From Pseudonocardiaceae bacterium (GTDB lineage: Bacteria; Actinomycetota; Actinomycetes; Mycobacteriales; Pseudonocardiaceae), in assembly GCA_035552275.1 (NCBI GenBank), contig DASZLR010000141.1:9186-73185 (forward strand): 64,000 nt of DNA, written 5' to 3'. The notes under the pieces are model-generated. The model was not told where the DNA came from. It saw nothing but the letters and a program-made list of their open reading frames with translations, and made no database searches. The position numbers were made by a program, and so were the translations under genes. Below are positions 1 to 40,868 of the stretch, piece after piece. Each line of letters starts with the position of its first letter. The first letter of the stretch is position 1.

Positions 1-1
1 C

Positions 2-1159
2 ATCTCGGTGAACCTGCCGGCGACCATCGCCACCAACACCCAGACCGGGGCGCTCGCGGTCACGGTCGACGCGACCGTGCCCGCGACGGCCACCCAGGGC
101 CTGGACCTGGTGGGCGGCACCAATTTGTCAGGCTCGGCGACGGCCAAGGCGACTCTCAACGAGCCGGGCGGCCAGACCCTGGACCTGAACATCCCGCTGA
201 CCATCCCGACGACGGCCATCCCGCAGGATGGCTCGGCGTTCACGGTGCACGCCACCGGTAGCGCGCCGTCGATCCAGTTCGCGACGGCGGGCAGCGGCTC
301 GGTCGTCGTGGACCCCGCCTTCTCGATGGTCCTGCACATCACGAACGCGAGTGGGGCGGCGACGAGCCTGCCTGACCCGTACAACACCAACTGCACGGCC
401 AACACCGGCCAGAACATGCAGCTGGCGACGTTCACGGTGACCGGTGGCAGCGGTGGCGGCACGACCACCACCACGACCACCCCGCCGACCACCACCACGA
501 CCACCCCGCCGACGAGCACCACGACCACCACGACGCCGCCGTCGAGCACCACGACGACGATGTCAATGCCGTCGACGACCACCACCACGACCAGTGCGGG
601 TGGCGGCACGACCACGACCGGTGGCGGTGGCGGTGGCCCGCTGGTGCTGCACTACGCGGTGAACGGCAGCGCTCACCTGACGACCCTGGGTTCGGACATC
701 AAGGTCGGTCCGGGCACTCTGACGGTGAATGTGGACCTGGCGACCGGCAACCTTTCCGGTCCGTTGGCCCTGCCGAACAACACGACCAGCTTCAACCTGT
801 TCGGATTCGTTCCGGGCACGGCCGAGGTCTCGTTGACTCCGACGGGTCCGGTGACCGGAACCTTCAAACAGGGCGTGGTGAACGTCGATGTGAAGGAGAC
901 GGTCGGGCTGGTCAACGTCACCATCTTCGGTGGCATTCCGCTGGTCAGCAACTCCAGCACCTGCCAGACGACCACGCCGTCTGACATCAAGCTGGCGTCC
1001 GGTTCGGACTTCACCATCACCAACGGTGGCAGTTTGTCCGGCAAGTTCGACCTTTCGGGGCTGAACAACAACTGTGGCGGCCTCGGCGGCTTCATCAGCG
1101 TCTTCACCCAGGGCACCGGCAACACGCTCTCGGTGAAGGTCACGCCGACGACGTCCTGA
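2..1159 (+). CDS. Secreted two-domain protein with Thr/Pro-rich linker, paralog 1 of 6 (N-terminus cut off by window edge)
   Basis: The ORF runs off the left edge. Translation from nt 2 (ISVNLPATIATNTQTGA...) aligns residue by residue with the N-domains of paralogs 4, 5 and 6. The Thr/Pro/Gly linker is at about nt 441-640. The C-domain (YAVNGSAHL...NTLSVKVTPTTS) is shared with paralogs 2-5. GC3 is high. Confidence 0.8.
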   Translation: MSVNLPATIATNTQTGALAVTVDATVPATATQGLDLVGGTNLSGSATAKATLNEPGGQTLDLNIPLTIPTTAIPQDGSAFTVHATGSAPSIQFATAGSGSVVVDPAFSMVLHITNASGAATSLPDPYNTNCTANTGQNMQLATFTVTGGSGGGTTTTTTTPPTTTTTTPPTSTTTTTTPPSSTTTTMSMPSTTTTTTSAGGGTTTTGGGGGGPLVLHYAVNGSAHLTTLGSDIKVGPGTLTVNVDLATGNLSGPLALPNNTTSFNLFGFVPGTAEVSLTPTGPVTGTFKQGVVNVDVKETVGLVNVTIFGGIPLVSNSSTCQTTTPSDIKLASGSDFTITNGGSLSGKFDLSGLNNNCGGLGGFISVFTQGTGNTLSVKVTPTTS

Positions 1160-1176
1160 ACTAGCACGCGGTAGTG

Positions 1177-1220
1177 GTTCGCCCCCGGAGGGTTCCTTCC
1201 TCCGGGGGCGAACCGTCTTT
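1177..1220 (+). terminator. Intrinsic terminator hairpin after paralog 1
   Basis: Perfect 16-bp stem ggttcgcccccggagg (1177-1192) / cctccgggggcgaacc (1199-1214) with a 6-nt loop, followed by gtcttt. It starts 18 nt after the stop codon. Confidence 0.8.
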
Positions 1221-1307
1221 CCGGCGGCGAAGATGTTTATCAGATTCGCACTACTCGCTAACTCGAAATTCGAGCGGAAATAACAACAGGTGGGTTCGAT
1301 TCAGATA

Positions 1308-1336
1308 TTGAATACGGAGCCGTGGCGCGGTAGTTT
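1308..1336 (+). promoter_or_regulatory. Sigma-70 (HrdB-like) promoter candidate for paralog 2
   Basis: TTGAAT (1308-1313), 17-nt spacer, TAGTTT (1331-1336). The same architecture recurs upstream of paralogs 4, 5 and 6. Confidence 0.55.
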
Positions 1337-1413
1337 TGTTCGGCAGCATCGCGCTGTCGTAACGACCGCATGCCCGCCCTTCCATTGCCCATGCTGAGGT
1401 GTTCGGAGACAAC

Positions 1414-2790
1414 ATGACAATGAGCCTGAGGTCGAAGCCACTGCTGAGGGGCGTGGCCGCGGTCGCCGCCGCCGGGGCGGTGGCCGGTGCCGTGGTGCTG
1501 GCCGGCGCCGGTTCGGCATCGGCCGCGACCGACACCCTGGCCCTGGACTACGGGTGCGAGTTCCCGGTCCTCATCCAGGCACAGATGCTGCACACGGTCA
1601 TCAACGTGAACCTCCCGCAGAGCATCGCCGTGGGCACCTCGACCGGCCCGATCAACGTCTCCGCCGCCGTGACGGTGCCCGGATCGGCGACCGCCGGCCT
1701 GAACCTGGTCAGCGCGGCGAGCATCGCGGGCACCGCCATCGCGCCGGCGACGCTGGTCGAGCCCAACGGCAGCTCGCTGCAGTTGCAGGTCAACCTCACC
1801 GTGCCGTCGACTCCGGTGCCGCAGGACGGATCGTCGTTCACGGTGAACGCGACCGGTCAACTGCCGCCGATCCAATTCGGACAGTCGGGCACCGCGACGG
1901 TGAGCGTCGGCAACACCATGTCCACCACGTTGGAGCCCAAGCAGAGCGACGGCACGGACACCGGCATCGGCCAGTTCACCTCGGACTGCACCCTGGCCGC
2001 AGGCCAGAACACCCAGCTCGCCAGCATCGCGGTCGGCACGGGGGGCGGTAGCTCGACCAGCACCACGAGCGGCACGTCCACGTCGCCGACGTCGAGCACC
2101 ACGTCGACCTCGCCCACGTCGAGCACCACCTCAACCACGTCGAGCACCACGAGCACCACGTCGAGCACCACGACCACGACGAGCCCGTCGTCCTCCACTA
2201 CCACCACAAGTCCGTCGTCCTCGACCACGGGAACCACCTCGACCACGGCCAGCTCGTCCGGCGGCGGTTCGCTGCATCTGAACTACGCGGTGAACGGCAC
2301 CAGCCACCTGCAATCGCTGGGTTCGGACATCCCGGTGGGTCCGGGCACCCTCGGAGTCGACGTCAACCTCGCCAGCGGCGCCCTGTCCGGCCCGCTGACC
2401 CTGCCGAACAACACCACCTCGTTCAACCTGTTCGGGTTCGTCCCGGGTACCGCGACCGTGGCGTTGATCCCGCAGGGACCGGTGACCGGCACCTTCCAGC
2501 AAGGCGTGGTGAACGCCGACGTGAAGGAGACGATCAGGCTGGTTGATGTCTCGATCTACGGCGTTCCAATCGTCAGCAACTCCACCACCTGTCAGACGAC
2601 CTCGCCGTCGGACATCCAGCTCAAGTCCGGTTCGGACTTCAGCATCGCCAACGGTGGCACGCTGGCCGGCACCTACAGCATCGCTGGGCTGGCGAACAAC
2701 GGCTGTGGCTTCCTCACCTCGTTCATCAGCGCGTTCACCCAGAGCACGGGCAACACGCTGTCGGTGAAGGTCACCCCGACCACGTCCTGA
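1414..2790 (+). CDS. Secreted two-domain protein with Ser/Thr-rich linker, paralog 2
   Basis: I chose the ATG at 1414 (MTMSLRSKPLLRG...) because the conserved box gttcggagacaa lies immediately upstream, as in paralogs 4-6; the ORF track begins at GTG 1399. There is a signal peptide ending in ASA, an N-domain, a linker at about 2038-2268 and a C-domain ending in NTLSVKVTPTTS. Confidence 0.85.
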   Translation: MTMSLRSKPLLRGVAAVAAAGAVAGAVVLAGAGSASAATDTLALDYGCEFPVLIQAQMLHTVINVNLPQSIAVGTSTGPINVSAAVTVPGSATAGLNLVSAASIAGTAIAPATLVEPNGSSLQLQVNLTVPSTPVPQDGSSFTVNATGQLPPIQFGQSGTATVSVGNTMSTTLEPKQSDGTDTGIGQFTSDCTLAAGQNTQLASIAVGTGGGSSTSTTSGTSTSPTSSTTSTSPTSSTTSTTSSTTSTTSSTTTTTSPSSSTTTTSPSSSTTGTTSTTASSSGGGSLHLNYAVNGTSHLQSLGSDIPVGPGTLGVDVNLASGALSGPLTLPNNTTSFNLFGFVPGTATVALIPQGPVTGTFQQGVVNADVKETIRLVDVSIYGVPIVSNSTTCQTTSPSDIQLKSGSDFSIANGGTLAGTYSIAGLANNGCGFLTSFISAFTQSTGNTLSVKVTPTTS

Positions 2791-2802
2791 CCCGAGCCGG
2801 TC

Positions 2803-2854
2803 ACGGGCCCGGTCCCGGGAGTCATCCTCCCGGGACCGGGCCCGTTTTCTTTTC
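2803..2854 (+). terminator. Intrinsic terminator hairpin after paralog 2
   Basis: Perfect 18-bp stem acgggcccggtcccggga (2803-2820) / tcccgggaccgggcccgt (2828-2845) followed by ttttcttttc. Confidence 0.85.
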
Positions 2855-2888
2855 GCGTCTGTTCCGCCACAACAAGAGGGAGATCACC

Positions 2889-4226
2889 GTGAGATCCAGA
2901 CGGAAGCCGTTACCGCGACTGGTGGCCGCGATCGCGGCGATCGGCGCGACTGCCGGCGTCATCACCCTGGCAGCGGTCGGGTCCGCCGCAGCCAACCCGA
3001 ACACGCTGACGACGAACTACCTGTGCGGCATGCCGGTCATCACCGCCCAGACCGCGAGTGTCGTGTTCAGCGATGACGCGCCGACCATTTTCCCGCTGGG
3101 CCAGCCGACCCCGCCGATTCACCTGACCGCGAACGTGACGATGCCAGCGAACACGGACGAGGCGTTCGACCTCGTCGCCGCCGCGACCGCCCAGACCAGC
3201 GGATCGCTGCGGGTGACCATTACCGACGGCGATGAGACCATTCCCGTGTCGGTGCCGCTGACCGCGCCCGACCTTTCGCTGCCGCAAGACGGCTCGCCAT
3301 TCACCCTGCGGCTCTCCGGCGTGATCCCGTCCCAGACCCTGCGGAACGCGTTCTCCGGTGGCCGCTTCTCAACCGGCGCACTGTCGATCAACTGGGATCT
3401 TTTCCAAGCCGGCGGTGTTGAGACATCGCTGGGCAAGTTCACCTCATCCTGCTCGGTGAACCCGCCGGGCCAGGACACCACGCTGCTCACCTGGGGTCCG
3501 CAGTGCGCCGCCGCTGGCGGCGCGTGTACAAGTCCGCCCTCGAGTTCCACCACCACCAGTACCACCACGACCAGCACCACACCGGTGGTGTCCACGCCCA
3601 CGATTTACACGACGTTCCCGAGCACGGACACCACCACGTTGGAGACATCGCCGGTCAGCGACTTCACCACGACGCCCACGAGCCCCACATCAACTACGAC
3701 GGGCGAACCGATCGTCGCGCTGGGCTACGATGTCAACGGCACCAGCCATCTGAAGTCGTTGAATGCCGACATCACGGTCGGTCCGGGCACGCTCACGATC
3801 AGTCTCAATCTCCAGACGGGCGATTTCTCCGGTCCGTTGACCCTGCCGGACAACACCACCTCGTTCGACCTGTTCGGTTTCCTGCCGGGCACGGCAACCG
3901 TGCGGTTGATTCCGCAGGGTCCGGTCACGGGCGTTTTTCATCAAGGTGTGGCGACCGCGGACGCGAAGGAGACAATTCGGTTGACAAATGTGTCCGTTTT
4001 GGGCGTGCCTATCGTCAGTAACTCGACCACCTGTCAGACGGCGGCGCCATCGGACATCTCGCTGGCATCCGGTCCGAACTTCAGTGTGGTGAATGGCGGA
4101 GCCTTGACCGGCGCGTACAGTATTGGCGCGCTGACTGGCTGTGGCGGTCTCGGCCAGTTCATCAGCGCCTTCGCACAGAGTTCCGGCAACACGATCTTGG
4201 TGGCCGTCACCCCGATCGCGCCCTGA
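2889..4226 (+). CDS. Secreted two-domain protein, paralog 3 (most divergent N-domain)
   Basis: GTG start at 2889 preceded by agagggag. Signal peptide MRSRRKPLPRLVAAIAAIGATAG...AAA. Divergent N-domain, Ser/Thr/Pro linker at about 3505-3710, and a conserved C-domain (YDVNGTSHLKSL...NTILVAVTP). Confidence 0.8.
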   Translation: MRSRRKPLPRLVAAIAAIGATAGVITLAAVGSAAANPNTLTTNYLCGMPVITAQTASVVFSDDAPTIFPLGQPTPPIHLTANVTMPANTDEAFDLVAAATAQTSGSLRVTITDGDETIPVSVPLTAPDLSLPQDGSPFTLRLSGVIPSQTLRNAFSGGRFSTGALSINWDLFQAGGVETSLGKFTSSCSVNPPGQDTTLLTWGPQCAAAGGACTSPPSSSTTTSTTTTSTTPVVSTPTIYTTFPSTDTTTLETSPVSDFTTTPTSPTSTTTGEPIVALGYDVNGTSHLKSLNADITVGPGTLTISLNLQTGDFSGPLTLPDNTTSFDLFGFLPGTATVRLIPQGPVTGVFHQGVATADAKETIRLTNVSVLGVPIVSNSTTCQTAAPSDISLASGPNFSVVNGGALTGAYSIGALTGCGGLGQFISAFAQSSGNTILVAVTPIAP

Positions 4227-4302
4227 CGCACCGATCGTTCGCGGTCCGGCCTCCGGCGTTTCACCACGTCGGGGCCGGGCCACCGGATTCAGCCGACCCC
4301 GA

Positions 4303-4369
4303 CGAGTAATCGGTCAGGTGTTAGTTGGTGACCTGACTTTTGTCATTTGTGAGTGATCATTCGGGCAAT
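4303..4369 (+). terminator. Two weak hairpins downstream of paralog 3
   Basis: A 7-bp stem gtcaggt/acctgac (4303-4327) is followed by ttttgtcatt. A 9-bp stem gtgagtgat/atcactcac (4339-4366) is followed by ttt. The ttttgtcatt motif recurs after the terminators at 6150 and 8056. Confidence 0.4.
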
Positions 4370-4447
4370 CACTCACTTTCGGATAATAAGTCGTCCGGAA
4401 GTTTGGTGACAAGTTGGACACTGGCCGCAGTGGCTTCGATTCAGGTA

Positions 4448-4476
4448 TTGAGACCTGCACTACATCGCGGTAACTT
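4448..4476 (+). promoter_or_regulatory. Sigma-70-like promoter candidate for paralog 4
   Basis: TTGAGA (4448-4453), 17-nt spacer, TAACTT (4471-4476). Confidence 0.55.
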
Positions 4477-4639
4477 TGCCCGTCGGTGTAACGCCGGCGT
4501 AATGATCTTTTTGGCCATGCCCTTTTCACTGGCGCGAGGGAGCGAGTGCGAGGCTGACCGGCGGCGCGCTGCGGGGCGCGAGGGTCGCTGGTCAGATGTC
4601 GAGTTCTCGCGCCGGTGCTGATGTGTTCGGAGACAACAC

Positions 4640-6070
4640 ATGAGAGTGTCCCTGAGATCGAAGCCCGTGCTGCGGGCTTTGGCTGGTGTTGCTGCCGCCG
4701 GTGCGGTGGCGAGCGTTGTGGTGTTGGCGACCGGCGGTTCGGCCTCGGCTGCCAGCCTCTCGCTCAATTGGAATTGTCCGTTTCCGCCCCTGGCGGATCA
4801 GACGCTGGCCACCAACATTTCGGTGAATCTGCCGGCGAGTATTCCGGTGAACACGCAGACCGGGGCGATCAACGTCTCGGTCGCCGCGACGGTGCCCACG
4901 ACCGCGACCCAGGGCCTGGACCTGGTGGGCGGCGCGAGCCTGTCGGGCACGGCGTCCGCGTCGGCCACGCTCAACGAGCCGGGTGGCCAGTCGCTGAACA
5001 TCGTCATCCCGATGACCATCCCGGACACCCCGATCCCGCAGGACGGTTCGGCGTTCACCACGAACGCGAGCGGCTCGGCACCGTCGATCCAGTTCGCGAC
5101 GGCTGGTCAGGGCTCGATCATCGTGGGTGGAACGTTCACGATGAACTTGCACATCAAGAACGCCAGTGGCTCCCCCACCAGCCTGCCTGATCCGTACACC
5201 ACCAACTGCACGGCCCTCACCGGCCAGAACATGCAGTTGGCGACGTTCACGGTGACACCGGTGACGACGTCCAGCACTACGACCACGACGCCGACGACTA
5301 CCACGACGACGCCGACTACCACCACGACGACGCCGACGACTACGACGACGACGCCGACCACTACGACTACTACGACAACGACGCCGACGACGACCACCAC
5401 GACGCCGACGACAACCACCACCACGACGACGCCGACGACCACGACGACGACGCCGACCACCACGACTACCACGCCGACGACTACGACCACGACGCCGACG
5501 ACCACCACGACGACGCCCACCACCACCACGACGACGCCGACCACGAGCACCAGCAGTGGCCCGCCGAGTTCGGTGACCTACGGCGTCAGTGGTACGACGC
5601 ACGTCAAGGCGCTGGGCGCCACTGTTCCGCTCGGTCCGGGCTCGCTGGATGTCAGCATCAGCCCGACCGGCGTCACCGGCAATCTGTCCCTGCCGACCGC
5701 GACGGCCAACTTCAACCTGTTCGGGTTCATTCCTGGCACCGCGCAGGTGAAGCTGAGCTCGGCCAGCCCGACGACGATCAACCTGTCGTCCACTGGCGTC
5801 AAGACCGACACCAAGGAGAACATCCAGCTGAGCACGGTGTCGATCTTCGGCATGTCGCTGCTGTCCGCCGGGTCCACCTGCGAGACGAGCACTCCGGCCG
5901 ACATCGCGCTGTCGTCCGGACCGGGCTTCACCTTGCTGAGCGGTGGTACCTTGTCCGGCAGCTACACGATCCCGCGGCTGAGCGGATGCGGCTTCTTCGC
6001 GCCGTTCATCAACGCTTTCACCGCTGGACCGGGCAACACGATCTCCATCACGGCCACGCCGAAGGCGTGA
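4640..6070 (+). CDS. Secreted two-domain protein with (PTTTTTT)n linker, paralog 4
   Basis: ATG at 4640 preceded by gttcggagacaacac. Signal peptide MRVSLRSKPVLRALAGVAAAGAV...ASAAS, N-domain (LNWNCPFPPLADQTLATNISVNLP...), a roughly 100-aa poly-Thr/Pro linker and a divergent C-domain. Confidence 0.85.
   Translation: MRVSLRSKPVLRALAGVAAAGAVASVVVLATGGSASAASLSLNWNCPFPPLADQTLATNISVNLPASIPVNTQTGAINVSVAATVPTTATQGLDLVGGASLSGTASASATLNEPGGQSLNIVIPMTIPDTPIPQDGSAFTTNASGSAPSIQFATAGQGSIIVGGTFTMNLHIKNASGSPTSLPDPYTTNCTALTGQNMQLATFTVTPVTTSSTTTTTPTTTTTTPTTTTTTPTTTTTTPTTTTTTTTTPTTTTTTPTTTTTTTTPTTTTTTPTTTTTTPTTTTTTPTTTTTTPTTTTTTPTTSTSSGPPSSVTYGVSGTTHVKALGATVPLGPGSLDVSISPTGVTGNLSLPTATANFNLFGFIPGTAQVKLSSASPTTINLSSTGVKTDTKENIQLSTVSIFGMSLLSAGSTCETSTPADIALSSGPGFTLLSGGTLSGSYTIPRLSGCGFFAPFINAFTAGPGNTISITATPKA
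5255..5560 (+). repeat. In-frame tandem repeat of about 21 nt encoding (PTTTTTT)n
   Basis: Roughly a dozen imperfect copies of ccg acg acN acc acg acg acg are visible directly in the sequence. The antisense ORF reads as poly-Val/Gly, which is an artefact. Confidence 0.9.
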
Positions 6071-6117
6071 CGCGGGAGATGCCCTCATCGCCGTGAGGCG
6101 ACGGCCTGCTGCAACTT

Positions 6118-6154
6118 GCCCGCCCCCGGGATTCTTCCCGGGGGCGGGCTTTTG
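6118..6154 (+). terminator. Intrinsic terminator after paralog 4
   Basis: 14-bp stem gcccgcccccggga (6118-6131) / tcccgggggcgggc (6136-6149), 4-nt loop, followed by ttttg. Confidence 0.85.
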
Positions 6155-6226
6155 TCATTGCGGAACAAAAAGCACATGTTCGGTTTTAGGGCGAATTGAC
6201 AACAATAAATAAACATCTGAAAGGGG

Positions 6227-6255
6227 TTGAATGCCTGGCAACGCCACGGTAACTT
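6227..6255 (+). promoter_or_regulatory. Sigma-70-like promoter candidate for paralog 5
   Basis: TTGAAT (6227-6232), 17-nt spacer, TAACTT (6250-6255), set in an AT-rich stretch. Confidence 0.55.
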
Positions 6256-6420
6256 CAGCCTTCGTCAATGTCGTGATCCACTGGCACTGACTAGCTAGTG
6301 ACAGTAACTGAATTAATGGATTTGGTACGGGATGCGGCAACGGTTCGGGGACCGGCGCCGTCGACTCCCTGTCTGATGTCGCGTTGTCGTGCCAATGCTG
6401 CTGCGTTCGGAGACAACGAC

Positions 6421-7995
6421 ATGAGAGTAAGTCTGAGGTCAAAGCCGATCCTCAGGGGTTTGGCCGCGGTCGCGGCGGTCGGCGCTGTCGCCGGCACCGT
6501 GGTGCTGGCTTCCGCTGGGACGGCTTCGGCCAACACCGACAGCCTTAAGTTGAACTTCACCTGTCCGTTCCCGCCGTTGGCGGATCAGACGCTGGCCACG
6601 ACGATCAACGTCACCCTGCCGGCGAGCATCCCGACGAACACCCCGACCGGGGCGATCAACGTCGCGGTGGACGCCGCCGTACCCGCTTCCGCCAGCCAGG
6701 GCTTGCAACTGGTTGGCGGGGCTACGCTGGCGGGCACCGCGACCGCGGGCGCGACGCTCAACGAGCCGGGCGGCCAGAAGCTGGACATCAAGATCCCGCT
6801 GACCATCCCGCAGACGAATATTCCGCAGGATGGTTCGGCGTTCACCGTGCATGCGACCGGCGCGGCGCCGTCGATTCAGTTCGCGACGGCTGGCCAGGGC
6901 TCGATCGTGGTGGCCAATACCTTCACGATGGCCCTGCACATCAAGAACGCGCAGGGCCAGGCCACCAGCCTGCCGGAGCCCTACAACACCAACTGCACGG
7001 GGGCCTCCGGGCAGAACTACAACCTGGGCAGCTTCACGGTGACCGGTGGCGGCGGTGGATCCAGCACGACCGGATCCGCGACCGGCACCTCCACCAGCGG
7101 TTCGGGCACCGAAACCTCGGGTACCTCGACTTCGGGCACGGAGACCTCGGGATCGTCGGAGACTTCGGCGACGTCCGCGACTTCGGGCACCGCGACATCG
7201 GGTACCGAGACTTCGGGTACGGAGACCTCTGGAACCGAAACCTCGGGTACGGAGACCTCGGGCACGGACACCTCCACGTCGATGAGCATGCCTAGCTCGT
7301 CGACCGAGACCTCCGGCACTGAGACTTCGGGCACGGAGACTTCGGGTACCGAGACTTCAGGCACGGCGACATCGGGTACGGAGACCTCTGGAACTGAGAC
7401 CTCTGGAACTGAGACTTCGGGTACCGAGACCTCGGGCACGGAGACCTCCACCCCTGGTGGCGGTGGCGGCGGACTGCACCTGGACTACGCGGTCAACGGC
7501 AGCGCACACCTGAAGACCCTGGGTTCGGACATCAAGGTCGGTCCGGGCACCCTCGGCGTTGACGTCAACCTGAGCAGCGGCGAGCTGCACGGGCCGCTGT
7601 CCCTGCCGGAGAACACCACCAACTTCAACCTGTTCGGGTTCATTCAGGGCTCGGCCAAGGTGAAGCTGGTTCCGGTCGGCGACATCACCGGCACCTTCAA
7701 GCAGGGTGTGGTGAACGTCGACGTCAAGGAGAGGGTTCTGCTGGACACGGTGTCGATCTTCGGCATCCCGCTGGTCAGCAACTCCACCACCTGTGAGACG
7801 ACTACGCCGTCTGACATCAAGCTGGCGTCCGGCTCGGACTTCAGCATCAACAACGGTGGCACGTTGTCGGGCACGTACGACCTCTCCGGGCTGAAGAACA
7901 ACGGGTGCGGCTTCCTCACCCCGTTCATCAGCATGTTCACCCAGGGCGCCGGCAACACGCTCTCGGTGAAGGTGACGCCGACCAAGCCAAGCTAA
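6421..7995 (+). CDS. Secreted two-domain protein with (TETSG)n linker, paralog 5
   Basis: I chose the ATG at 6421 (MRVSLRSKPILRG...) because it follows gttcggagacaacgac. The track ORF starts at 6298, but codons upstream of 6421 have low GC3. There is an N-domain, a roughly 140-aa linker and a C-domain. Confidence 0.85.
   Translation: MRVSLRSKPILRGLAAVAAVGAVAGTVVLASAGTASANTDSLKLNFTCPFPPLADQTLATTINVTLPASIPTNTPTGAINVAVDAAVPASASQGLQLVGGATLAGTATAGATLNEPGGQKLDIKIPLTIPQTNIPQDGSAFTVHATGAAPSIQFATAGQGSIVVANTFTMALHIKNAQGQATSLPEPYNTNCTGASGQNYNLGSFTVTGGGGGSSTTGSATGTSTSGSGTETSGTSTSGTETSGSSETSATSATSGTATSGTETSGTETSGTETSGTETSGTDTSTSMSMPSSSTETSGTETSGTETSGTETSGTATSGTETSGTETSGTETSGTETSGTETSTPGGGGGGLHLDYAVNGSAHLKTLGSDIKVGPGTLGVDVNLSSGELHGPLSLPENTTNFNLFGFIQGSAKVKLVPVGDITGTFKQGVVNVDVKERVLLDTVSIFGIPLVSNSTTCETTTPSDIKLASGSDFSINNGGTLSGTYDLSGLKNNGCGFLTPFISMFTQGAGNTLSVKVTPTKPS
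7044..7472 (+). repeat. In-frame 15-nt tandem repeat encoding (TETSG)n in two blocks
   Basis: Units ggN acN gag acN tcN repeat about 20 times. The blocks are interrupted at 7282-7296 by atgagcatgcctagc (MSMPS). The same MSMPS pentapeptide sits mid-linker in paralog 1 (nt 560-574). Confidence 0.9.
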
Positions 7996-8020
7996 CCTCC
8001 TCAGGCACGGTCGCGACGGA

Positions 8021-8059
8021 CTCGCCCCCAGGGTTTTTCCAACCCTGGGGGCGAGTTTT
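8021..8059 (+). terminator. Intrinsic terminator after paralog 5
   Basis: 15-bp stem ctcgcccccagggtt (8021-8035) / aaccctgggggcgag (8041-8055), followed by ttttg. Confidence 0.85.
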
Positions 8060-8122
8060 GTCATTCCCCTTTGTCCTTTGCTGACAAGGATGCGCATCCA
8101 GGCGCGACTTCCGTTGCGAGCC

Positions 8123-8151
8123 TTGAGAGTTCCGGTACGGGCGAGTAACTT
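8123..8151 (+). promoter_or_regulatory. Sigma-70-like promoter candidate for paralog 6
   Basis: TTGAGA (8123-8128), 17-nt spacer, TAACTT (8146-8151). Confidence 0.55.
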
Positions 8152-8225
8152 CAGCCGCCGATATGTCTTTAGCGAACGGCAAAAACTAACAACTGATTTT
8201 CGGGGCCAAGGCGTTCGGAGACAAG

Positions 8226-9257
8226 ATGATAGTGAGACTGAGGTCGAAGTCGGTGCTGAGGGGCGCGGCCGCGTTGATGGTGGCCGGAGCGGTGGCCGGT
8301 GTGGTGATGCTCGCCGAGGCAGGACCGGCGTCAGCCGCCAGCCTTTCGCTCAACTGGACCTGTCCGTTCCCACCGTTGGCGGACCAGACGCTGGCCACCA
8401 ACATTTCGGTGAACCTGCCGGCGAGTATTCCGGTGAACACGCAGACCGGGGCGATCAACGTCTCGGTCGCCGCGACGGTGCCCGCGACGGCCACCCAGGG
8501 CCTGGATCTGGTGGGCGGCGCGAGCCTGTCGGGCACCGCCTCGGCGGCGGCGACGCTCAACGAGCCGGGCGGCCAGAAGCTCAACATCACGATCCCGATG
8601 ACCATCCCGAACACGCCGATCCCGCAGAACGGCACGGCGTTCACCACGAACGCGAGCGGCGCGGCACCGTCGATCCAGTTCGCGACGGCCGGCCAGGGTT
8701 CGATCGTGGTCGGCAACTCGTTCTCGATGGTCCTGCACATCAAGAACTCCAGCGGCGGCGCCACCAGCCTGCCCGAGCCGTACAACACCAACTGCACCGC
8801 GAACTCCGGCCAGAACATGCAGCTGTCGACGTTCACGGTGACCGGTGGCGGCGGTGGCGGTACGACCACCACCACGTCAAGCACCGGCACCACGACGACC
8901 GGAACATCGAGCACCGGCACCACGACAACCGGCACCACGACCACCGGAACGTCGACCACGGGCACCAGCACCACGCCGACGACGGGAACCACCGAGTCCA
9001 CCACCACGGCCGAGTCGCCGACGTCGACGACCCCGGTGGCGACCACCTCGGTCGCGCCGGTCAGCACGACGTCGACCGCCTACGGCTACGTCAACACGGG
9101 CGGCAGCAGCGGATCCGGCAGCAGCGGGACCGGAAGTCTCGCCTATACCGGTGTTTCCGTGCTGGGACCAGTGATCGCCGGCCTAGTGCTGATCATCGGC
9201 GGCGGGACCGCATTGTTGTTCGCCCGACGCCGCCGCGCCGCCGGGAACAGTCGATGA
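8226..9257 (+). CDS. Cell-wall-anchored variant, paralog 6: same N-domain and Thr/Gly linker, with an LAYTG sortase sorting signal instead of the C-domain
   Basis: ATG at 8226 follows gttcggagacaag. The N-domain is nearly identical to paralog 4. The C-terminus GSLAYTGVSVLGPVIAGLVLIIGGGTALLFARRRRAAG is an LAxTG motif plus a hydrophobic helix plus an Arg tail, which is the pattern of actinobacterial class E sortase substrates. Confidence 0.85.
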   Translation: MIVRLRSKSVLRGAAALMVAGAVAGVVMLAEAGPASAASLSLNWTCPFPPLADQTLATNISVNLPASIPVNTQTGAINVSVAATVPATATQGLDLVGGASLSGTASAAATLNEPGGQKLNITIPMTIPNTPIPQNGTAFTTNASGAAPSIQFATAGQGSIVVGNSFSMVLHIKNSSGGATSLPEPYNTNCTANSGQNMQLSTFTVTGGGGGGTTTTTSSTGTTTTGTSSTGTTTTGTTTTGTSTTGTSTTPTTGTTESTTTAESPTSTTPVATTSVAPVSTTSTAYGYVNTGGSSGSGSSGTGSLAYTGVSVLGPVIAGLVLIIGGGTALLFARRRRAAGNSR

Positions 9258-9675
9258 GGTGAGGGCCTGGACCGTCGGCCGGATGGCGGAATGCGCGCCG
9301 GCCGGCGGTCCCCGGTCACGGGCCGGGAGTTCATGATCCCGGTTGAGCGACCGACTCCGGTGTCCTGTCACTGCGGTAACAAGAAAACTGTCCAGGCCGA
9401 ACGTTCCCGCGTGGTTGGCGGTCAGACCTTGCACCGGGGTTCATACGCCAGTAACGTACCCGCCGGTAACTGCGGTCACATTCGGTTGGTCGTGACAACA
9501 GAAGTACTCCGCTGCCCGCCACACCGCCGTGAAGGGAAAGGTTTTTTGTGAACGTTTCTGTTCGCTTGGCGTCGGGTATCGGCCGAGTCGACGTAAAGCC
9601 AGCGTGTAGTCGCCGCTGGTGATCTCGGAACGCGGGTAATGCCAGCACGGCGGAGTAGCGAGAGCGGGAGGTCTG

Positions 9676-10875
9676 ATGGGTGTCGAGGTGGTGGTCGAGG
9701 GGTTGACCAAGTCCTTCGGCCGGCAGACCATCTGGCGGGACGTGAGCCTGACCCTGCCGGCCGGCGAGGTGTCGGTCATGCTCGGCCCGTCGGGAACTGG
9801 TAAGTCGGTGTTCCTGAAGTCGATGATCGGGCTGCTCAAGCCCGAACGCGGCAAGTGCGTCATCGACGGAATCGACACGGTGTCGTGTTCCGAACGTCAG
9901 CTCTACGCGACCCGGAAGCTGTTCGGGGTGCTTTTCCAGGACGGCGCGCTGTTCGGCTCGATGAGCCTTTACGACAATGTGGCCTTTCCGCTGCGGGAGC
10001 ACACCAGGAAGTCGGAGTCGGAGATCCGGCGGATCGTGTTCGAGAAGCTGGAGATGGTCGGTCTGGCCGGCACCGAGACGAAACTGCCCGGCGAGATCTC
10101 CGGCGGTATGCGCAAGCGGGCCGGCCTGGCCCGCGCCCTCGTCCTCGATCCGCAGATCATCCTGTGCGACGAGCCGGACTCCGGTCTGGACCCGGTCCGC
10201 ACGTCCTACATTTCGCAGACTTTGATTGATTTGAACGCGCAGATCGACGCCACGATTCTCATCGTCACGCACAACATCAATATCGCCCGGACCGTGCCGG
10301 ACAATCTCGGCATGCTGTACCGGCGCGAATTGGTGATGTTCGGGCCGCGTGAGGTGCTGCTGACCAGCGAGGAGCCCTCCGTCAAGCAGTTTCTTCGGGG
10401 CAGCCGGATCGGCCCTATTGGAATGTCCGAGGAGAAGGACTCGGCGACTCTGGCCGCCGAGGCCGCGCAGATCGACGCCGGCCACCACGACGGCGGGGTG
10501 GAGGATTTCGACGGAATCGCGCCGCAGATGCTGCCGACGCCGGGACTGCCCGAGCGGCAGGCGGTGCGGAGGCGCAAAGATCGCGTGATGCGCATGCTGC
10601 ACACCCTGCCGGCGCCGGCCCAGCAGGCCATCGTCGAATCGCTGACCCCGGCCGAGGCCCACCGCTACCGGATGGGCGGCGGCGGGACCCTCCCGCACGC
10701 CACCGCCACCACGACGATGCAGCCGAACGTGCCGCCGACCCGCCCGCCAGCGCCACGGCCCGGTCCGGGCGGTCTGCCCCAGCGGCCCGCGCCGAGCGGC
10801 CCACCGGGCAACGAGAACTGGCCGGTCGGCCGGCCGGTGCCGCCGCGCCGTCCCGGCGAGGGAGGCTGGCGCTAG
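9676..10875 (+). CDS. mceG: Mce-associated ABC transporter ATPase (MceG/Mkl, MlaF-like) with a Pro-rich C-terminal tail
   Basis: RBS gggagg precedes the start. Walker A GPSGTGKS, signature LPGEISGGMRKRAGLARAL and Walker B ILCDEPDSGLD are present. It sits first in the yrbE-mce operon. The C-terminal roughly 140 aa are low-complexity and Pro-rich. Confidence 0.9.
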   Translation: MGVEVVVEGLTKSFGRQTIWRDVSLTLPAGEVSVMLGPSGTGKSVFLKSMIGLLKPERGKCVIDGIDTVSCSERQLYATRKLFGVLFQDGALFGSMSLYDNVAFPLREHTRKSESEIRRIVFEKLEMVGLAGTETKLPGEISGGMRKRAGLARALVLDPQIILCDEPDSGLDPVRTSYISQTLIDLNAQIDATILIVTHNINIARTVPDNLGMLYRRELVMFGPREVLLTSEEPSVKQFLRGSRIGPIGMSEEKDSATLAAEAAQIDAGHHDGGVEDFDGIAPQMLPTPGLPERQAVRRRKDRVMRMLHTLPAPAQQAIVESLTPAEAHRYRMGGGGTLPHATATTTMQPNVPPTRPPAPRPGPGGLPQRPAPSGPPGNENWPVGRPVPPRRPGEGGWR

Positions 10876-11684
10876 TGGCCACCCCGACCACCCGGCTCAA
10901 CCTGGACAGCGTGCTGGCCCTGCCCGGCCGCGCGATGTCCCAGGTCGGCAACCTGTTCGCGCTGGGCGCGAGCGTGATCTGGCTGTCCTTCAAACGGCCG
11001 TTCCAACTGCGCGAGTTCATCGAGCAGTTCTGGTTCATCGCCCGGGTCACGATCCTGCCCACGATGTTCGTGTCGATCCCGTTCGGCGCGATCATCTCGC
11101 TGCAACTGGGGTCCCTGACCACCCAGATCGGCGCCGAGTCGTTCACCGGCGCGGCGAGCGTCCTGGCGATCATCCAGCAGGCCAGCCCGGTGGTCACCGC
11201 GCTGCTGGTGGCCGGCGTCGGCGGCTCGGCGATCTGCGCGGACATCGGCGCCCGCACCATCCGCGAGGAGATCGACGCGATGGAGGTGCTGGGCGTCTCG
11301 GCGATCCAGCGCCTGGTGGTGCCCCGGGTGCTGGCCGCGATGCTGGTCGCGATCCTGCTCAACGGCCTGGTCAGCGTGGTCGGTGTGCTCGGCGGCTACT
11401 TCTTCAACGTCGTCCTGCAGGGCGGCACGCCGGGCGCGTACCTGTCCAGCTTCGCCGCCCTGGCCCAGCTTTCCGACCTGTGGGTCGGCGAGATCAAGGC
11501 GGTGATCTTCGGGTTCATCGCCGGAGTGGTCGCCGCCTATCGCGGCCTGCACCCGGCGGCCGGACCGAAGGGCGTCGGCGACTCGGTGAACCAGTCGGTG
11601 GTCATCACCTTCCTGTTGCTGTTCTTCGTGAACGCGGTGCTCACCGCCGTGTACCTGAAGATCGTTCCACCGAAGGCGGTCTGA
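10875..11684 (+). CDS. yrbEA: YrbE/MlaE-family permease A of the Mce system
   Basis: The GTG start overlaps the upstream TAG stop by 1 nt. It is a multi-pass hydrophobic protein with typical YrbE sequence (REEIDAMEVLG, ...YRGL...GPKGVG). Confidence 0.9.
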   Translation: MATPTTRLNLDSVLALPGRAMSQVGNLFALGASVIWLSFKRPFQLREFIEQFWFIARVTILPTMFVSIPFGAIISLQLGSLTTQIGAESFTGAASVLAIIQQASPVVTALLVAGVGGSAICADIGARTIREEIDAMEVLGVSAIQRLVVPRVLAAMLVAILLNGLVSVVGVLGGYFFNVVLQGGTPGAYLSSFAALAQLSDLWVGEIKAVIFGFIAGVVAAYRGLHPAAGPKGVGDSVNQSVVITFLLLFFVNAVLTAVYLKIVPPKAV

Positions 11685-11688
11685 TCGA

Positions 11689-12531
11689 ATGAACGTGACG
11701 GTGACCGCGCGGCTCGGCGCCAACCTGGACCGATCGCTGGGCTTCCTGGACCGGCTCGGCGACCAACTGGTGTTCTACGTGCGCGCGCTGGCCTGGACGC
11801 CGCGGACGGTGCGCCGGTACAGCCGCGAGGTGATCCGGCTGCTGGCCGAGGTCAGCTTCGGGTCCGGCGCGCTGGGCGTGATCGGCGGGACCATCGGCGT
11901 GATGTTCGGCATCACCGCCTTCACCGGCATCGTCGTCGGCATCCAGGGCTACGCCGCGCTGAGCCAGTTGGGCACGGCCGCGTTCACCGGCTTCATCACC
12001 GCCTACTTCAACACCCGGGAGATCGCCCCGCTGACCGCCGGCCTGGCGCTGTCGGCGACCGTCGGCGCCGGCTTCACCGCGCAGCTCGGCGCGATGCGGA
12101 TCTCCGAGGAGGTCGACGCGCTGGAGTCGATGGGCATCCCCAGCCTGCCGTATCTGGTGACCACCCGGATCGTGGCGGGCGCCATCGCGATCATCCCGCT
12201 GTACGGCGTCGGCCTGCTCGTCTCCTACGTCGCCTCCCGCGAGGTGACCGTCCTGATCAACGGGCAGTCGGCCGGCACCTATGACCACTACTTCAACCTG
12301 TTCCTGCCACCGGGCGACGTGGTGCTCTCCTTCCTCAAGGTGCTGATCTTCAGCATCATGGTGATCCTCACGCACTGCTACTACGGCTATCGCGCCACCG
12401 GCGGCCCGGCCGGGGTGGGCGTGGCGGTCGGCAACGCGGTGCGCACCGCCATCGTCACGATCACGGTCACCGACTTCTTCCTGAGCCTGGCGATCTGGGG
12501 CGCGACCACGACGGTCAAGGTGACCGGATGA
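11689..12531 (+). CDS. yrbEB: YrbE/MlaE-family permease B of the Mce system
   Basis: Paralog of the preceding permease (SEEVDALESMG, ...YYGYRATGGPAGVG). Its stop overlaps the mceA start (ATGA). Confidence 0.9.
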   Translation: MNVTVTARLGANLDRSLGFLDRLGDQLVFYVRALAWTPRTVRRYSREVIRLLAEVSFGSGALGVIGGTIGVMFGITAFTGIVVGIQGYAALSQLGTAAFTGFITAYFNTREIAPLTAGLALSATVGAGFTAQLGAMRISEEVDALESMGIPSLPYLVTTRIVAGAIAIIPLYGVGLLVSYVASREVTVLINGQSAGTYDHYFNLFLPPGDVVLSFLKVLIFSIMVILTHCYYGYRATGGPAGVGVAVGNAVRTAIVTITVTDFFLSLAIWGATTTVKVTG

Positions 12532-39175: not shown

Positions 39176-39240
39176 GTGAGGATCGGCCAGGGGCGCGGTG
39201 ACCATCTTTCGATGGTTCCGTTTCCCCTGGCCGCCCTCCC

Positions 39241-39274
<34 letters not shown>

Positions 39275-39282
39275 TCCACGAG

Positions 39283-40737: not shown

Positions 40738-40833
40738 AAACAGATCCTTCCGCTGCTGACTCGCTGTCGCCCTTCGCCATGTGGACGGCTTTGTCGGGTA
40801 GCCGGAGCGCATTGCTGCGCCCCGGCCCCCTCA

Positions 40834-40868
40834 GAACCGTGCGTGCCACTCGTCGCGGCACACGGCTC
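40834..40868 (-). ncRNA. Group II intron domain V (inner intron)
   Basis: The minus strand reads GAGCCGTGTGCCGCGACGAGTGGCACGCACGGTTC. It has an AGC triad and a basal stem GAGCCGTG/CACGGTTC, and it overlaps the IEP stop codon. Confidence 0.8.

What the first reader, a model, noticed from the sequence alone, without database searches (positions are those of the whole stretch)
1..9257. Tandem array of six paralogous secreted two-domain proteins of unknown function
Six consecutive same-strand genes encode the same modular protein.
- **Signal peptide:** Sec-type, M-R-V-S-L-R-S-K-P...ASA.
- **Domain A:** a roughly 190-aa N-domain with two conserved Cys (NCPFPPLADQ ... NTNCT).
- **Linker:** low-complexity Thr/Ser/Pro/Gly.
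- **Domain B:** a roughly 170-aa C-domain with two conserved Cys (YAVNGSAHL ... STTCxT ... CG ... NTLSVKVTP).

I do not recognise either domain as a characterised family. Both look beta-rich. Four copies are followed by clear hairpin terminators and four have their own promoter-like boxes, so the copies appear to be largely independently expressed cassettes rather than one operon. The array sits directly upstream of a lipid-uptake mce operon. Copy number, individual regulation and surface or secreted localisation suggest a diversified surface or extracellular binding family. Possible roles are substrate capture, adhesion or a phage-receptor decoy, but all of these are speculation.
Basis: partly seen in the sequence, partly recalled or inferred. 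Interest (0 to 1): 0.7.

Follow-up and report, generated by a model that had tools for sequence, protein, structure and literature searches.

The report
Mce-linked array of DUF6801 surface proteins
Six neighbouring genes in a soil actinomycete encode secreted or wall-anchored proteins of a catalogued but unstudied family (DUF6801), five of which also carry an uncatalogued beta-barrel domain, and relatives of these genes sit beside lipid-import (Mce) operons in several other actinomycetes, so they are candidate outside-the-cell helpers of lipid uptake.

Summary
The array is real, with one correction. Five genes (g1-g5) encode signal peptide, domain A, Thr/Ser/Pro/Gly linker and domain B. The sixth (g6) has no domain B and ends in a class-E sortase sorting signal (LAYTG, hydrophobic stretch, RRRR).

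- **Domain A:** Pfam DUF6801 in all six genes. NCBI already names g2 and g6 [quoted passage not shown]. It is predicted to be an Ig/arrestin-like beta-sandwich.
- **Domain B:** no Pfam or NCBIfam model, but widespread (1173 clusters at 50% identity). It almost always lies at the C-terminus, either stand-alone or fused to DUF6801, fn3 or Ig domains. It is predicted to be an 11-strand beta-barrel, with only weak resemblance to HtaA, YceI, lipocalin and small outer-membrane-protein barrels.
- **Mce link:** supported. A+B genes lie 29-54 nt upstream of mkl-yrbE-mce in two Streptomyces species and one metagenome contig. They lie next to mce in two other Streptomyces species, and upstream of 5 of 49 metagenomic mkl loci.
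- **Lipase link:** in 43 Amycolatopsis loci and one labelled Streptomyces, an A+B pair sits next to a lipase orthologous to the one that follows mce in this window.
- **Separate expression:** hairpins and a duplicated promoter-like box and ribosome-binding site fit separate expression. No transcript data were available.

Best reading (about 0.4): extracytoplasmic accessory proteins of the Mce lipid importer. Function is inferred, not shown.

The parts
1..1159 (+). g1, 5'-truncated by the window edge: DUF6801 (partial, 8-439), Thr/Pro/Gly linker (440-637), domain B (638-1156)
   Evidence: ORF. Pfam DUF6801 E 7.8e-19. Local domain B HMM 3.7e-54.
1176..1214 (+). hairpin with a 16-17 bp G+C-rich stem after g1; terminator-like
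   Evidence: RNA fold. Coordinates.
1308..1336 (+). promoter-like box TTGAAT-N17-TAGTTT upstream of g2; conserved GTTCGGAGACAA at 1401-1412
1414..2790 (+). g2 (NCBI HWE89895.1): signal peptide, DUF6801 (1531-2034), Ser/Thr linker, domain B (2269-2787)
2803..2845 (+). 19-bp hairpin plus T-tract after g2; intrinsic-terminator-like
2889..4226 (+). g3, the most divergent copy: signal peptide, DUF6801 (3000-3500), linker with two extra Cys, domain B (3711-4223). It has its own GAGGGAG ribosome-binding site and no shared promoter box.
4243..4347 (+). two weaker hairpins after g3 (4243-4281, 4312-4337) followed by TTTTGTCATT
4448..4476 (+). promoter-like box TTGAGA-N17-TAACTT upstream of g4; GTTCGGAGACAA at 4625-4636
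4640..6070 (+). g4: signal peptide, DUF6801 (4751-5254), 103-aa (T6P)n linker, divergent domain B (5564-6067)
6118..6159 (+). 14-bp hairpin plus TTTTGTCATT after g4; intrinsic-terminator-like
6227..6255 (+). promoter-like box TTGAAT-N17-TAACTT upstream of g5; GTTCGGAGACAA at 6405-6416
6421..7995 (+). g5: signal peptide, DUF6801 (6538-7041), 143-aa (TETSG)n linker, domain B (7471-7992)
8021..8065 (+). 15-bp hairpin plus TTTTGTCATT after g5; terminator-like
8123..8151 (+). promoter-like box TTGAGA-N17-TAACTT upstream of g6; GTTCGGAGACAA at 8213-8224
8226..9257 (+). g6 (NCBI HWE89901.1, annotated from a later start): signal peptide, DUF6801 (8337-8840), Thr/Gly linker, sortase sorting signal LAYTG + TM + RRRR (about 9138-9254). 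No domain B.
   Evidence: One search gives weak LAXTG NCBIfam hits, below cutoff.
9269..9311 (+). hairpin after g6 (no T-tract), inside the 418-nt spacer before mkl
9676..19065 (+). linked Mce transporter operon: mkl ATPase 9676-10875, yrbEA 10875-11684, yrbEB 11689-12531, six Mce/MlaD genes 12528-19065
   Evidence: Pfam ABC_tran, MlaD and Mce4_CUP1. ORFs.
19203..20543 (+). LIP-family secretory lipase. Its orthologues (55-60% identity) sit beside A+B gene pairs in Amycolatopsis.
   Evidence: Pfam PF03583 E 3e-45. Synteny.

Best explanation
The array is a lineage-specific expansion, by duplication and recombination, of an actinobacterial family of extracytoplasmic proteins. These proteins probably work with the adjacent Mce lipid importer and the LIP lipase.

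Each protein is exported by a Sec signal peptide. It carries a disulfide-bonded Ig/arrestin-like beta-sandwich (DUF6801), followed by a long Thr/Ser/Pro/Gly spacer that is probably O-glycosylated and extended.

In g1-g5 the spacer ends in domain B. Domain B is a roughly 170-aa, disulfide-bonded, 11-strand beta-barrel. I propose that it binds a hydrophobic ligand.

In g6 the spacer ends in an LAYTG sorting signal, so a class-E sortase would attach the protein covalently to peptidoglycan.

Proposed mechanism: in or on the thick wall of this monoderm actinomycete, the barrel-bearing proteins, perhaps organised around the wall-anchored g6, capture lipids or sterols freed by the secreted lipase. 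They then pass them to the Mce needle for import.

- **Shown:** gene structures, domain identities, export and anchor signals, predicted folds, conserved synteny.
- **Inferred:** ligand binding, glycosylation, any contact with Mce, and separate regulation of the copies.
For: **Domains and signals**
- All six genes hit DUF6801.
- Signal peptides, and the LAYTG + TM + RRRR tail in g6.

**Predicted folds**
- Domain A: pLDDT 92.9, a beta-sandwich. Best PDB match is 3lso, an uncharacterised C. diphtheriae "membrane anchored protein" (prob 1.0, TMq 0.52), followed by arrestin, ApaG, pilin and adhesin domains.
- Domain B: pLDDT 83.8, 11 long strands plus one helix. The best matches are ligand-binding or small barrels: HtaA/HtaB (prob 0.96), DynF, the YceI-like BcnB, lipocalin-like proteins, nitrobindin, avidin, and OmpA/W/X (TM up to 0.51).
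- Conserved positions in domain B are Gly, Cys, Pro, Asn and aromatic residues, not a catalytic set.

**Context reached from the A/B side**
- An A+B gene lies 29-54 nt upstream of mkl-yrbE-mce on the same strand in S. albus, S. iconiensis and a JGI metagenome contig.
- A+B, A-LAxTG and A-WxL genes lie just downstream of mce in Streptomyces sp. BR1 and S. melanogenes. Next to them is the same NMO-KS-AT-KR polyketide synthase (PKS) that follows mce in this window.
- 44 of 45 genome-contig loci (43 Amycolatopsis, one labelled Streptomyces) place an A+B tandem pair divergently next to the orthologue of the window's LIP lipase. In L029 an mceF gene lies 6.5 kb further on.

**Context reached from the mce side**
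- 5 of 49 metagenomic mkl loci with at least 2 kb of upstream sequence carry A/B genes upstream.

**Other hints of hydrophobic ligands**
- Fatty-acid beta-oxidation genes flank the Streptomyces loci.
- Stand-alone domain B genes elsewhere sit next to TetR regulators and an MMPL transporter.
- UniRef labels three stand-alone domain B proteins "Polyisoprenoid-binding protein YceI".
Against: - There is no experimental or sequence-level evidence for lipid binding. Structural matches are weak: no Foldseek hit reaches E <= 1e-3, and TM-scores are 0.3-0.5. The profile search against PDB sequences found nothing.
- YceI and HtaA Pfam models do not hit, even in the proteins that UniRef names YceI.
- About 90% of sampled mkl loci lack A/B genes, so the family is not a general Mce component.
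- Several A or B genes lie far from any mce operon.
- Domain B occupies the position that LAxTG or WxL modules occupy in paralogues. It almost always sits at the extreme C-terminus behind varied passenger domains. That is equally the signature of a wall- or surface-attachment module.
- Many of the synteny examples are orthologous loci within a single genus, so they are not independent observations.
Confidence: 0.4

Rival explanations
1. A general cell-surface display or adhesion complex, analogous to the Csc/WxL clusters of Firmicutes. DUF6801 would be the displayed functional head (adhesin or surface-property protein). Domain B, WxL and LAxTG would be three interchangeable ways of holding it on the wall. 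The position next to mce would reflect shared envelope or hydrophobic-surface biology, not a part in transport.
For: - DUF6801 paralogues in one Streptomyces locus end in LAxTG, in WxL (PF13731, 25.3 bits) or in domain B. A WxL-interacting-protein-like gene sits among them.
- Domain B is almost always at the extreme C-terminus, behind fn3, Ig, PKD, cadherin or DUF6801 passenger domains joined by low-complexity linkers.
- Domain A resembles pilin, adhesin and arrestin-type sandwiches and a C. diphtheriae membrane-anchored protein.
- g6 is a sortase substrate by sequence.
Against: - Most domain B proteins found are stand-alone secreted proteins of about 200 aa with nothing to anchor.
- Domain B shows no detectable homology to WxL (hhalign probability 0.4%).
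- Tight, probably co-transcribed placement in front of mkl in several lineages points to more than loose co-location.
- The window holds no WxL or WxLIP gene among the ORFs scanned.
Confidence: 0.3
2. A diversified set of variable surface proteins, such as phage-receptor decoys, immune- or predator-evasion variants, or contingency genes. Each copy would be expressed from its own promoter to vary the cell surface.
For: - The paralogues are mosaic. Domain A groups g1/g4/g5/g6 (72-87% identity), with g2 at about 48% and g3 at about 30%. Domain B groups g1/g2/g5 (74-76%), with g4 at 46-52%.
- A 90-97% nucleotide-identity tract links g4 and g6, set in flanks of 63-78%, which indicates gene conversion.
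- The copies have individual hairpins and upstream boxes.
- Linker repeats vary widely.
Against: - There are no phage, invertase or phase-variation elements in or beside the array.
- The family sits at conserved positions beside mce and lipase genes across genera, which fits a housekeeping accessory role better.
- Most relatives have only one or two copies.
Confidence: 0.08
3. Haem or metal acquisition proteins of the HtaA type. Domain B would bind haem through Tyr/His and relay it to a membrane transporter.
For: - The best Foldseek matches of domain B are the HtaA CR domain and HtaB of Corynebacterium (E 4.6e-3, prob 0.96).
- The window copies share Tyr6 and His13.
- The family includes sortase-anchored members, as haem-relay systems do.
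Against: - TM-scores are only 0.27-0.33, with rmsd above 8 A.
- The Pfam HtaA model does not hit at E <= 1.
- His13 is not among the invariant or nearly invariant columns in the wider family.
- No haem ABC transporter or haem oxygenase lies nearby. The neighbours are lipid genes.
Confidence: 0.04

Closest known systems
Pfam DUF6801 (PF20611) proteins of Actinomycetota, e.g. Streptomyces DUF6801-LAxTG proteins (P0004, P0006)
   Same: - All six window genes match the full-length model above its gathering score.
- g6 has the same architecture as the Streptomyces proteins: signal peptide, DUF6801, Pro/Thr linker, LAxTG, TM, basic tail. Identity is 42-43%.
- The DUF6801 + domain B architecture is common: 50 of the 108 top domain B hits have it.
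   Different: - The family has no described function, and no paper in the searchable library mentions it.
- Six tandem copies is an unusual expansion. Relatives examined here have one to three copies.
Mce-associated accessory proteins of actinobacterial Mce transporters (Mas/Mam proteins; Casali & Riley 2007, PMC1810536)
   Same: They are extracytoplasmic proteins encoded in or beside mce operons, often as paralogous sets, and proposed as accessory ligand-handling partners.
   Different: - According to PMC1810536, Mas proteins have an N-terminal membrane helix and a partly alpha-helical conserved domain, and they lie downstream of mceF.
- The proteins here are all-beta, have a cleaved signal peptide, lie mostly upstream of mkl, and occur at only about 10% of sampled mkl loci.
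- I ran no sequence comparison with Mas proteins.
Csc / WxL cell-surface protein clusters of Firmicutes (WxL proteins, DUF916/WxLIP, small LPXTG protein)
   Same: - Paralogous secreted proteins are clustered with a sortase-anchored member.
- In Streptomyces sp. BR1 and S. melanogenes the DUF6801 cluster really does include a WxL-domain paralogue and a WxLIP-like gene.
   Different: - The window has no WxL or WxLIP gene among the ORFs scanned.
- Domain B is not detectably related to WxL.
- The head domain (DUF6801) and the link to mce are specific to actinomycetes.
Small ligand-binding beta-barrels: HtaA/HtaB haem-binding domains, YceI-like proteins (BcnB), DynF, lipocalin-like proteins
   Same: They are secreted, about 170 aa, and form up-and-down barrels of long strands with one helix. 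They are the best structural matches of domain B. A UniRef label calls some stand-alone members YceI.
   Different: - No sequence-level relationship is detectable.
- TM-scores are only 0.3-0.5.
- The conserved disulfide and the GPG and GNT motifs are features of domain B itself.

Membership tests
Pfam DUF6801 (PF20611) | Match to the family HMM above the gathering score (26 bits) over most of the 161-position model | tested here: met
   58-105 bits. Model positions 1-161 are covered in g2-g6 and 21-161 in the truncated g1.
Class E sortase substrates (LAxTG cell-wall sorting signal) | C-terminal LAxTG pentapeptide, then a hydrophobic segment, then a positively charged tail, in a protein with an N-terminal signal peptide | tested here: met
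   g6 only: LAYTG, a 24-residue hydrophobic stretch (VSVLGPVIAGLVLIIGGGTALLFA), then RRRR. NCBIfam LAXTG models hit weakly, below cutoff. g1-g5 end with domain B and have no such signal.
Class E sortase substrates (LAxTG cell-wall sorting signal) | A class E sortase encoded in the genome and actual wall attachment | not testable with these tools
   No sortase was found among the window ORFs scanned. The rest of the MAG is not available. Attachment needs experiment.
HtaA haem-binding domain (PF04213) | Match to the HtaA HMM, and a conserved haem-ligating Tyr with a partner His | tested here: not met
   No Pfam hit at E <= 1. Foldseek gives prob 0.96 but TM only 0.31. His13 is not conserved across the family, whereas Tyr6 is about 90% conserved.
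YceI-like polyisoprenoid-binding proteins (PF04264) | Match to the YceI HMM, and an 8-stranded lipocalin-like barrel | tested here: not met
   No Pfam hit at E <= 10, even for the proteins that UniRef labels YceI. The YceI-like BcnB gives TM 0.38 and prob 0.44. The model has 11 strands.
WxL surface domain (PF13731) / Csc-type cluster | WxL-domain protein(s), a DUF916/WxLIP protein and a small sortase-anchored protein in one locus | tested here: not met
   Window proteins give no WxL or WxLIP hit. hhalign of domain B against WxL gives probability 0.4%. The feature is met in the related Streptomyces locus L049.
Mce transporter operon (neighbour, not the array itself) | mkl ATPase, two YrbE/MlaE permeases and six MlaD/Mce-domain genes in one operon | tested here: met
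   (ABC_tran, MlaD and Mce4_CUP1 hits). Homology of the yrbE genes to the Streptomyces loci reaches E about 1e-119 to 1e-134.
Mas/Mam Mce-associated proteins | Conserved roughly 160-aa Mas domain after an N-terminal membrane helix; genes downstream of mceF | not tested
   No Mas sequence was compared. Position (upstream of mkl) and the all-beta prediction differ from the description in PMC1810536.

The most novel reading that the evidence does not exclude
DUF6801 proteins and domain B proteins together form a previously unrecognised extracellular arm of Mce lipid importers in monoderm actinomycetes such as Streptomyces and Pseudonocardiaceae. A third uncatalogued secreted family of about 205 aa, seen with them in other loci, may also belong. 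Domain B would be a new family of lipid-binding beta-barrels that capture substrates, for example products of the LIP lipase, in the cell wall. It would deliver them to the tip of the Mce needle, playing the part of a substrate-binding protein that Mce systems are not known to have. The six-copy array would then encode a panel of binders with different specificities, each regulated separately.
Probability: 0.25. Interest if true: 0.7.

Novelty: new member of a known kind. Interest (0 to 1): 0.45.

Why it matters
It is not clear how substrates reach the tip of an Mce transporter, especially in actinomycetes that have no outer membrane. The substrate and role of the single Streptomyces mce cluster are also still uncertain (PMC3552289, PMC13451039).

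A secreted protein family that repeatedly sits in front of mkl-yrbE-mce, or beside the lipase that accompanies it, is a concrete and testable candidate for the missing extracellular step.

Separately, domain B is a large family (more than 1000 clusters at 50% identity) with no Pfam or NCBIfam model. Defining it would improve the annotation of many actinobacterial secreted proteins.

If the surface-anchor reading is right instead, domain B would be a new wall-association module alongside LAxTG and WxL. In either case the array itself is an ordinary paralogue expansion of a catalogued family.

Tried and rejected
- **Are A and B diverged copies of one fold?** hhalign of 43 A sequences against 105 B sequences gave probability 2.7%. 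The secondary HMM cross-hits seen were all insignificant. Rejected.
- **Is domain B related to WxL?** hhalign probability 0.4%. Rejected, although the WxL side had only two sequences.
- **PDB by sequence.** Nothing for domain B (one 0.15 E-value hit to a phage linking protein was ignored). For domain A, only low-complexity linker matches.
- **YceI or HtaA membership by Pfam.** No hits.
- **Word-indexed protein search.** A single domain B query found only one relative. This reflects the index and not rarity, because the exhaustive search found 1173 clusters.
- **The search for related loci.** The diverse domain B alignments failed for lack of a conserved stretch. The narrower alignment recovered essentially one orthologous Amycolatopsis locus, so its 45 loci count as roughly one observation.
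- **The look-up of encoding contigs for g6 (P0002).** No record.
- **Literature.** No paper mentions DUF6801. PDB code 3LSO and SCO2423 gave nothing useful. The Actinoplanes SrtE-substrate paper gives no domain information linking its Cwp proteins to DUF6801.
- **Rfam.** No RNA family in the long 5' regions of the array.

Full report
**1. What is in the sequence**

Positions 1-9257 hold six consecutive + strand ORFs:
- g1, 1-1159 (5' end lost at the window edge)
- g2, 1414-2790
- g3, 2889-4226
- g4, 4640-6070
- g5, 6421-7995
- g6, 8226-9257

The alignment shows a shared plan.
- **Signal peptide.** A Sec-type signal peptide: MRVSLRSKP..., then an Ala/Val-rich core ending in ASA.
- **Domain A.** About 165 aa, with Cys near each end.
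- **Linker.** 66-143 aa and 71-99% Thr/Ser/Pro/Gly. It is built from different short DNA repeats in each copy.
- **Domain B (g1-g5 only).** About 170 aa, with two conserved Cys.

g6 is different. After its linker it ends in SLAYTG, then VSVLGPVIAGLVLIIGGGTALLFA, then RRRRAAGNSR. That is an LAxTG-type sortase sorting signal (weak NCBIfam LAXTG hits). A local HMM scan finds domain A only in these six genes and domain B only in these five across the whole 64-kb window.

**2. Identity of the domains**

Domain A is Pfam DUF6801 (PF20611) in all six genes, at 58-105 bits against a cutoff of 26. The window comes from a Pseudonocardiaceae metagenome-assembled genome. g2 and g6 are NCBI HWE89895.1 and HWE89901.1, both named "DUF6801 domain-containing protein". 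No paper in the searchable library mentions DUF6801.

Domain B matches nothing in Pfam or NCBIfam, and nothing in PDB sequences. It is not rare, however.
- An exhaustive profile search of 1.84 billion representative proteins found 1173 clusters at E <= 1e-3, of which 703 were at E <= 1e-10.
- In the top hits the domain almost always ends the protein.
- It occurs alone behind a signal peptide in proteins of about 200 aa (the commonest form). It also occurs after DUF6801 (50 of 108 proteins), fn3 (29 of 108) or other Ig-like domains. No Pfam family covers domain B itself.

Domains A and B are not detectably related to each other (hhalign probability 2.7%).

**3. Predicted structures**

*Domain A.* It models confidently (pLDDT 92.9) as a beta-sandwich with one short helix. 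Its best PDB match is 3lso, an uncharacterised "putative membrane anchored protein" of Corynebacterium diphtheriae (E 1.1e-3, prob 1.0, TMq 0.52). Arrestin, ApaG, pilin and adhesin domains follow. This is the kind of fold seen in Gram-positive surface proteins.

*Domain B.* It models at pLDDT 83.8 and pTM 0.75 from only six sequences. The model has eleven strands, several of them 11-17 residues long, and one helix. No PDB match reaches E <= 1e-3. The list is led by the haem-binding HtaA/HtaB domains (prob 0.96 but TM about 0.31). It continues with DynF, the YceI-like BcnB, lipocalin-like proteins, nitrobindin, avidin, and the 8-stranded barrels OmpA, OmpW, OmpX and PagL (TM up to 0.51).

I read this as an up-and-down beta-barrel that is not a member of any solved family. 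Conserved columns are Gly, Pro, Cys, Asn and a few aromatic residues. That pattern suits a binding or structural module, not an enzyme.

**4. Regulatory anatomy**

Long G+C-rich hairpins follow g1, g2, g4 and g5, three of them with T-tracts. Weaker hairpins follow g3 and g6.

Upstream of g2, g4, g5 and g6 lie two shared elements: a box TTGARW-N17-TARYTT, and the string GTTCGGAGACAA placed one to four bases before the start codon. Each occurs only at those four places in the window. g3 and mkl lack both.

These patterns were derived from the sequences themselves. They show that the duplication unit included the flanking DNA, and they are compatible with one transcript per gene. They do not demonstrate it. 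Rfam finds no known RNA element in the array.

**5. Evolution of the array**

The two domains give conflicting groupings.
- Domain A: g1, g4, g5 and g6 are 72-87% identical, g2 about 48% and g3 about 30%.
- Domain B: g1, g2 and g5 are 74-76% identical, g3 57-70% and g4 46-52%.

g4 and g6 share a tract of 90-97% nucleotide identity (about 4795-5090) inside flanks of 63-78%. The paralogues have therefore exchanged segments, and the linkers evolve freely.

**6. Genomic context here and elsewhere**

In the window the array is followed by:
- mkl (9676-10875), yrbEA/B and six mce genes (to 19065)
- a LIP-family secretory lipase (19203-20543)
- a short-chain dehydrogenase (SDR)
- a PUFA-synthase-like polyketide synthase (PKS) with NMO-KS-AT-ACP-KR domains (22064-29107), and further lipid-type genes

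*Starting from A/B proteins in other organisms.*
- In S. albus and S. iconiensis, a stand-alone domain B gene, a gene of about 205 aa for an uncatalogued secreted protein, and an A+B gene precede mkl-yrbE-mce on the same strand. The A+B gene ends 29-54 nt before mkl. Fatty-acid beta-oxidation genes lie nearby.
- A JGI metagenome contig shows the same order, with a 51-nt gap.
- In Streptomyces sp. BR1 and S. melanogenes the mce genes are followed by Mas-like genes, DUF5819 and HTTM. Next come an A+B gene, an A-LAxTG gene, a WxLIP-like gene and an A-WxL gene. The same type of NMO-KS-AT-KR PKS as in the window follows.
- The genome scan found 45 loci, of which 44 are labelled Amycolatopsis. In 44 of the 45, a tandem pair of A+B genes lies divergently next to a lipase that is 55-60% identical to the window's LIP. 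The exception, L030, is cut at the contig end. One locus reaches an mceF gene 6.5 kb beyond the lipase.
- Three stand-alone domain B genes lie next to TetR regulators, one of them with an MMPL transporter, and have no mce nearby. One divergent DUF6801 gene lies in a mobile-element context.

*Starting from mkl.* Among 80 metagenomic loci, 49 have at least 2 kb of upstream sequence, and 5 of those carry A/B genes upstream. Four of them carry a clear A+B gene and three the full set of 205-aa gene, stand-alone B gene and A+B gene.

The linkage to mce is therefore real and recurrent, but it is confined to a minority of mce loci. Many of the supporting loci are orthologous to one another.

**7. Interpretation**

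*Firm conclusions.* These are exported proteins. One is a sortase substrate by sequence. They belong to a catalogued but unstudied family. Their genes are repeatedly tied to an Mce lipid importer and a secreted lipase.

*Preferred mechanism (about 0.4).* The barrel-bearing proteins capture hydrophobic substrates in or on the cell wall and hand them to the Mce system. The mechanism rests on three things:
- the gene context
- the barrel fold of domain B
- the TetR, MMPL and beta-oxidation neighbours of relatives

*Main rival (about 0.3).* Paralogues swap domain B for LAxTG or WxL, and domain B always sits at the C-terminus behind varied passenger domains. That is what a wall-attachment module looks like, with DUF6801 as the functional head. 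The abundance of stand-alone domain B proteins argues against a pure anchor.

*Other readings.*
- Surface-variation or decoy: has only the mosaicism and the separate promoters in its favour.
- HtaA-like haem binding: fails the sequence and conservation tests and does not fit the neighbours.

**8. Comparison with the known, and novelty**

The array is a new, unusually expanded member of the DUF6801 family. The A+B architecture is already frequent in databases.

As far as the searchable literature shows, two things are not described. One is the domain B family itself. The other is the recurrent placement of A, B and the 205-aa family at mce loci. The descriptions of actinobacterial mce clusters read here (PMC1810536, PMC3552289, PMC13451039) do not mention them.

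I score interest at 0.45. The array itself is ordinary, but it gives a concrete and testable lead for the Mce field.

Noticed in passing
L047 12621-13238; L050 12845-13462; L054 9238-9900; L064 341-3757 (four tandem copies); L078 2-571; L127 1152-1946: A third secreted protein family of about 205-220 aa (signal peptide, several Cys, no Pfam hit) recurs just upstream of the stand-alone domain B gene and the A+B gene in front of mkl-yrbE-mce. The Streptomyces and metagenome copies are 34-38% identical. It is absent from this window.
   Followed up: partly
window 39176-43239, - strand: Two adjacent group II introns. Rfam finds Intron_gpII domains at 39176-39276 and 40793-40870, and a D1-D4 match at 43151-43239. 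Reverse-transcriptase/maturase ORFs lie at 39283-40812 and 40867-42669. This stretch has lower G+C (0.63) than its surroundings.
   Followed up: partly
window 22064-31986; L049 14248-20993; L052 14243-21017: A PUFA-synthase-like PKS (NMO enoyl reductase, KS, AT, ACP, KR; 2347 aa), followed by an AT-containing partner, lies downstream of mce and the lipase. The same kind of PKS lies next to the DUF6801 cluster and mce in Streptomyces sp. BR1 and S. melanogenes. The conserved neighbourhood is therefore larger than the array plus mce. G+C rises to 0.72-0.75 over this PKS.
   Followed up: partly
L001-L045, about 1-7000 (e.g. L020 123-5827; L029 1818-6982): In Amycolatopsis, three paralogous PucR-type regulators (HTH_30) lie between the LIP lipase and, in L029, the end of an mce operon. 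The window has one homologue far away at 45021-46397 (- strand). S. albus has a PucR-like gene next to its stand-alone domain B gene.
   Followed up: partly
L049 11110-13396 (- strand); L052 11129-13427: Streptomyces DUF6801 paralogues include one with a C-terminal WxL domain (PF13731, 25.3 bits), next to a WxL-interacting-protein-like gene (PF06030, 25.9 bits, just below cutoff). This is a Csc/WxL-type surface cluster in an actinomycete, fused to a DUF6801 head.
   Followed up: partly
L046 9157-10603; L048 9127-10600; L051 4215-5593: Stand-alone domain B genes in Actinokineospora, Saccharopolyspora and a Streptomyces each sit next to a TetR-family regulator. In L048 an MMPL transporter is also nearby. 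This looks like a separate, non-mce subfamily context.
   Followed up: no
window 4640-7995 (g4, g5): The public annotation seems to split or shorten some copies. Five accession numbers fall between g2 (HWE89895) and g6 (HWE89901), where I see three genes. A 165-aa protein equal to domain B of g4 alone (P0009) is in the protein library, and the full-length g4 and g5 products are not. The repetitive linkers may have disturbed gene calling or assembly.
   Followed up: partly
window 4338-4347, 6150-6159, 8056-8065: The decamer TTTTGTCATT directly follows the hairpins after g3, g4 and g5. The duplicated unit therefore includes the 3' flank as well as the promoter region.
   Followed up: no
window 51452-58570, - strand: A second, modular type I PKS (KS-AT-DH-KR-ACP-ACP-TE, 2372 aa) lies in another high-G+C stretch (0.73-0.74). 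An acyl-CoA dehydrogenase lies at 60396-61571.
   Followed up: no
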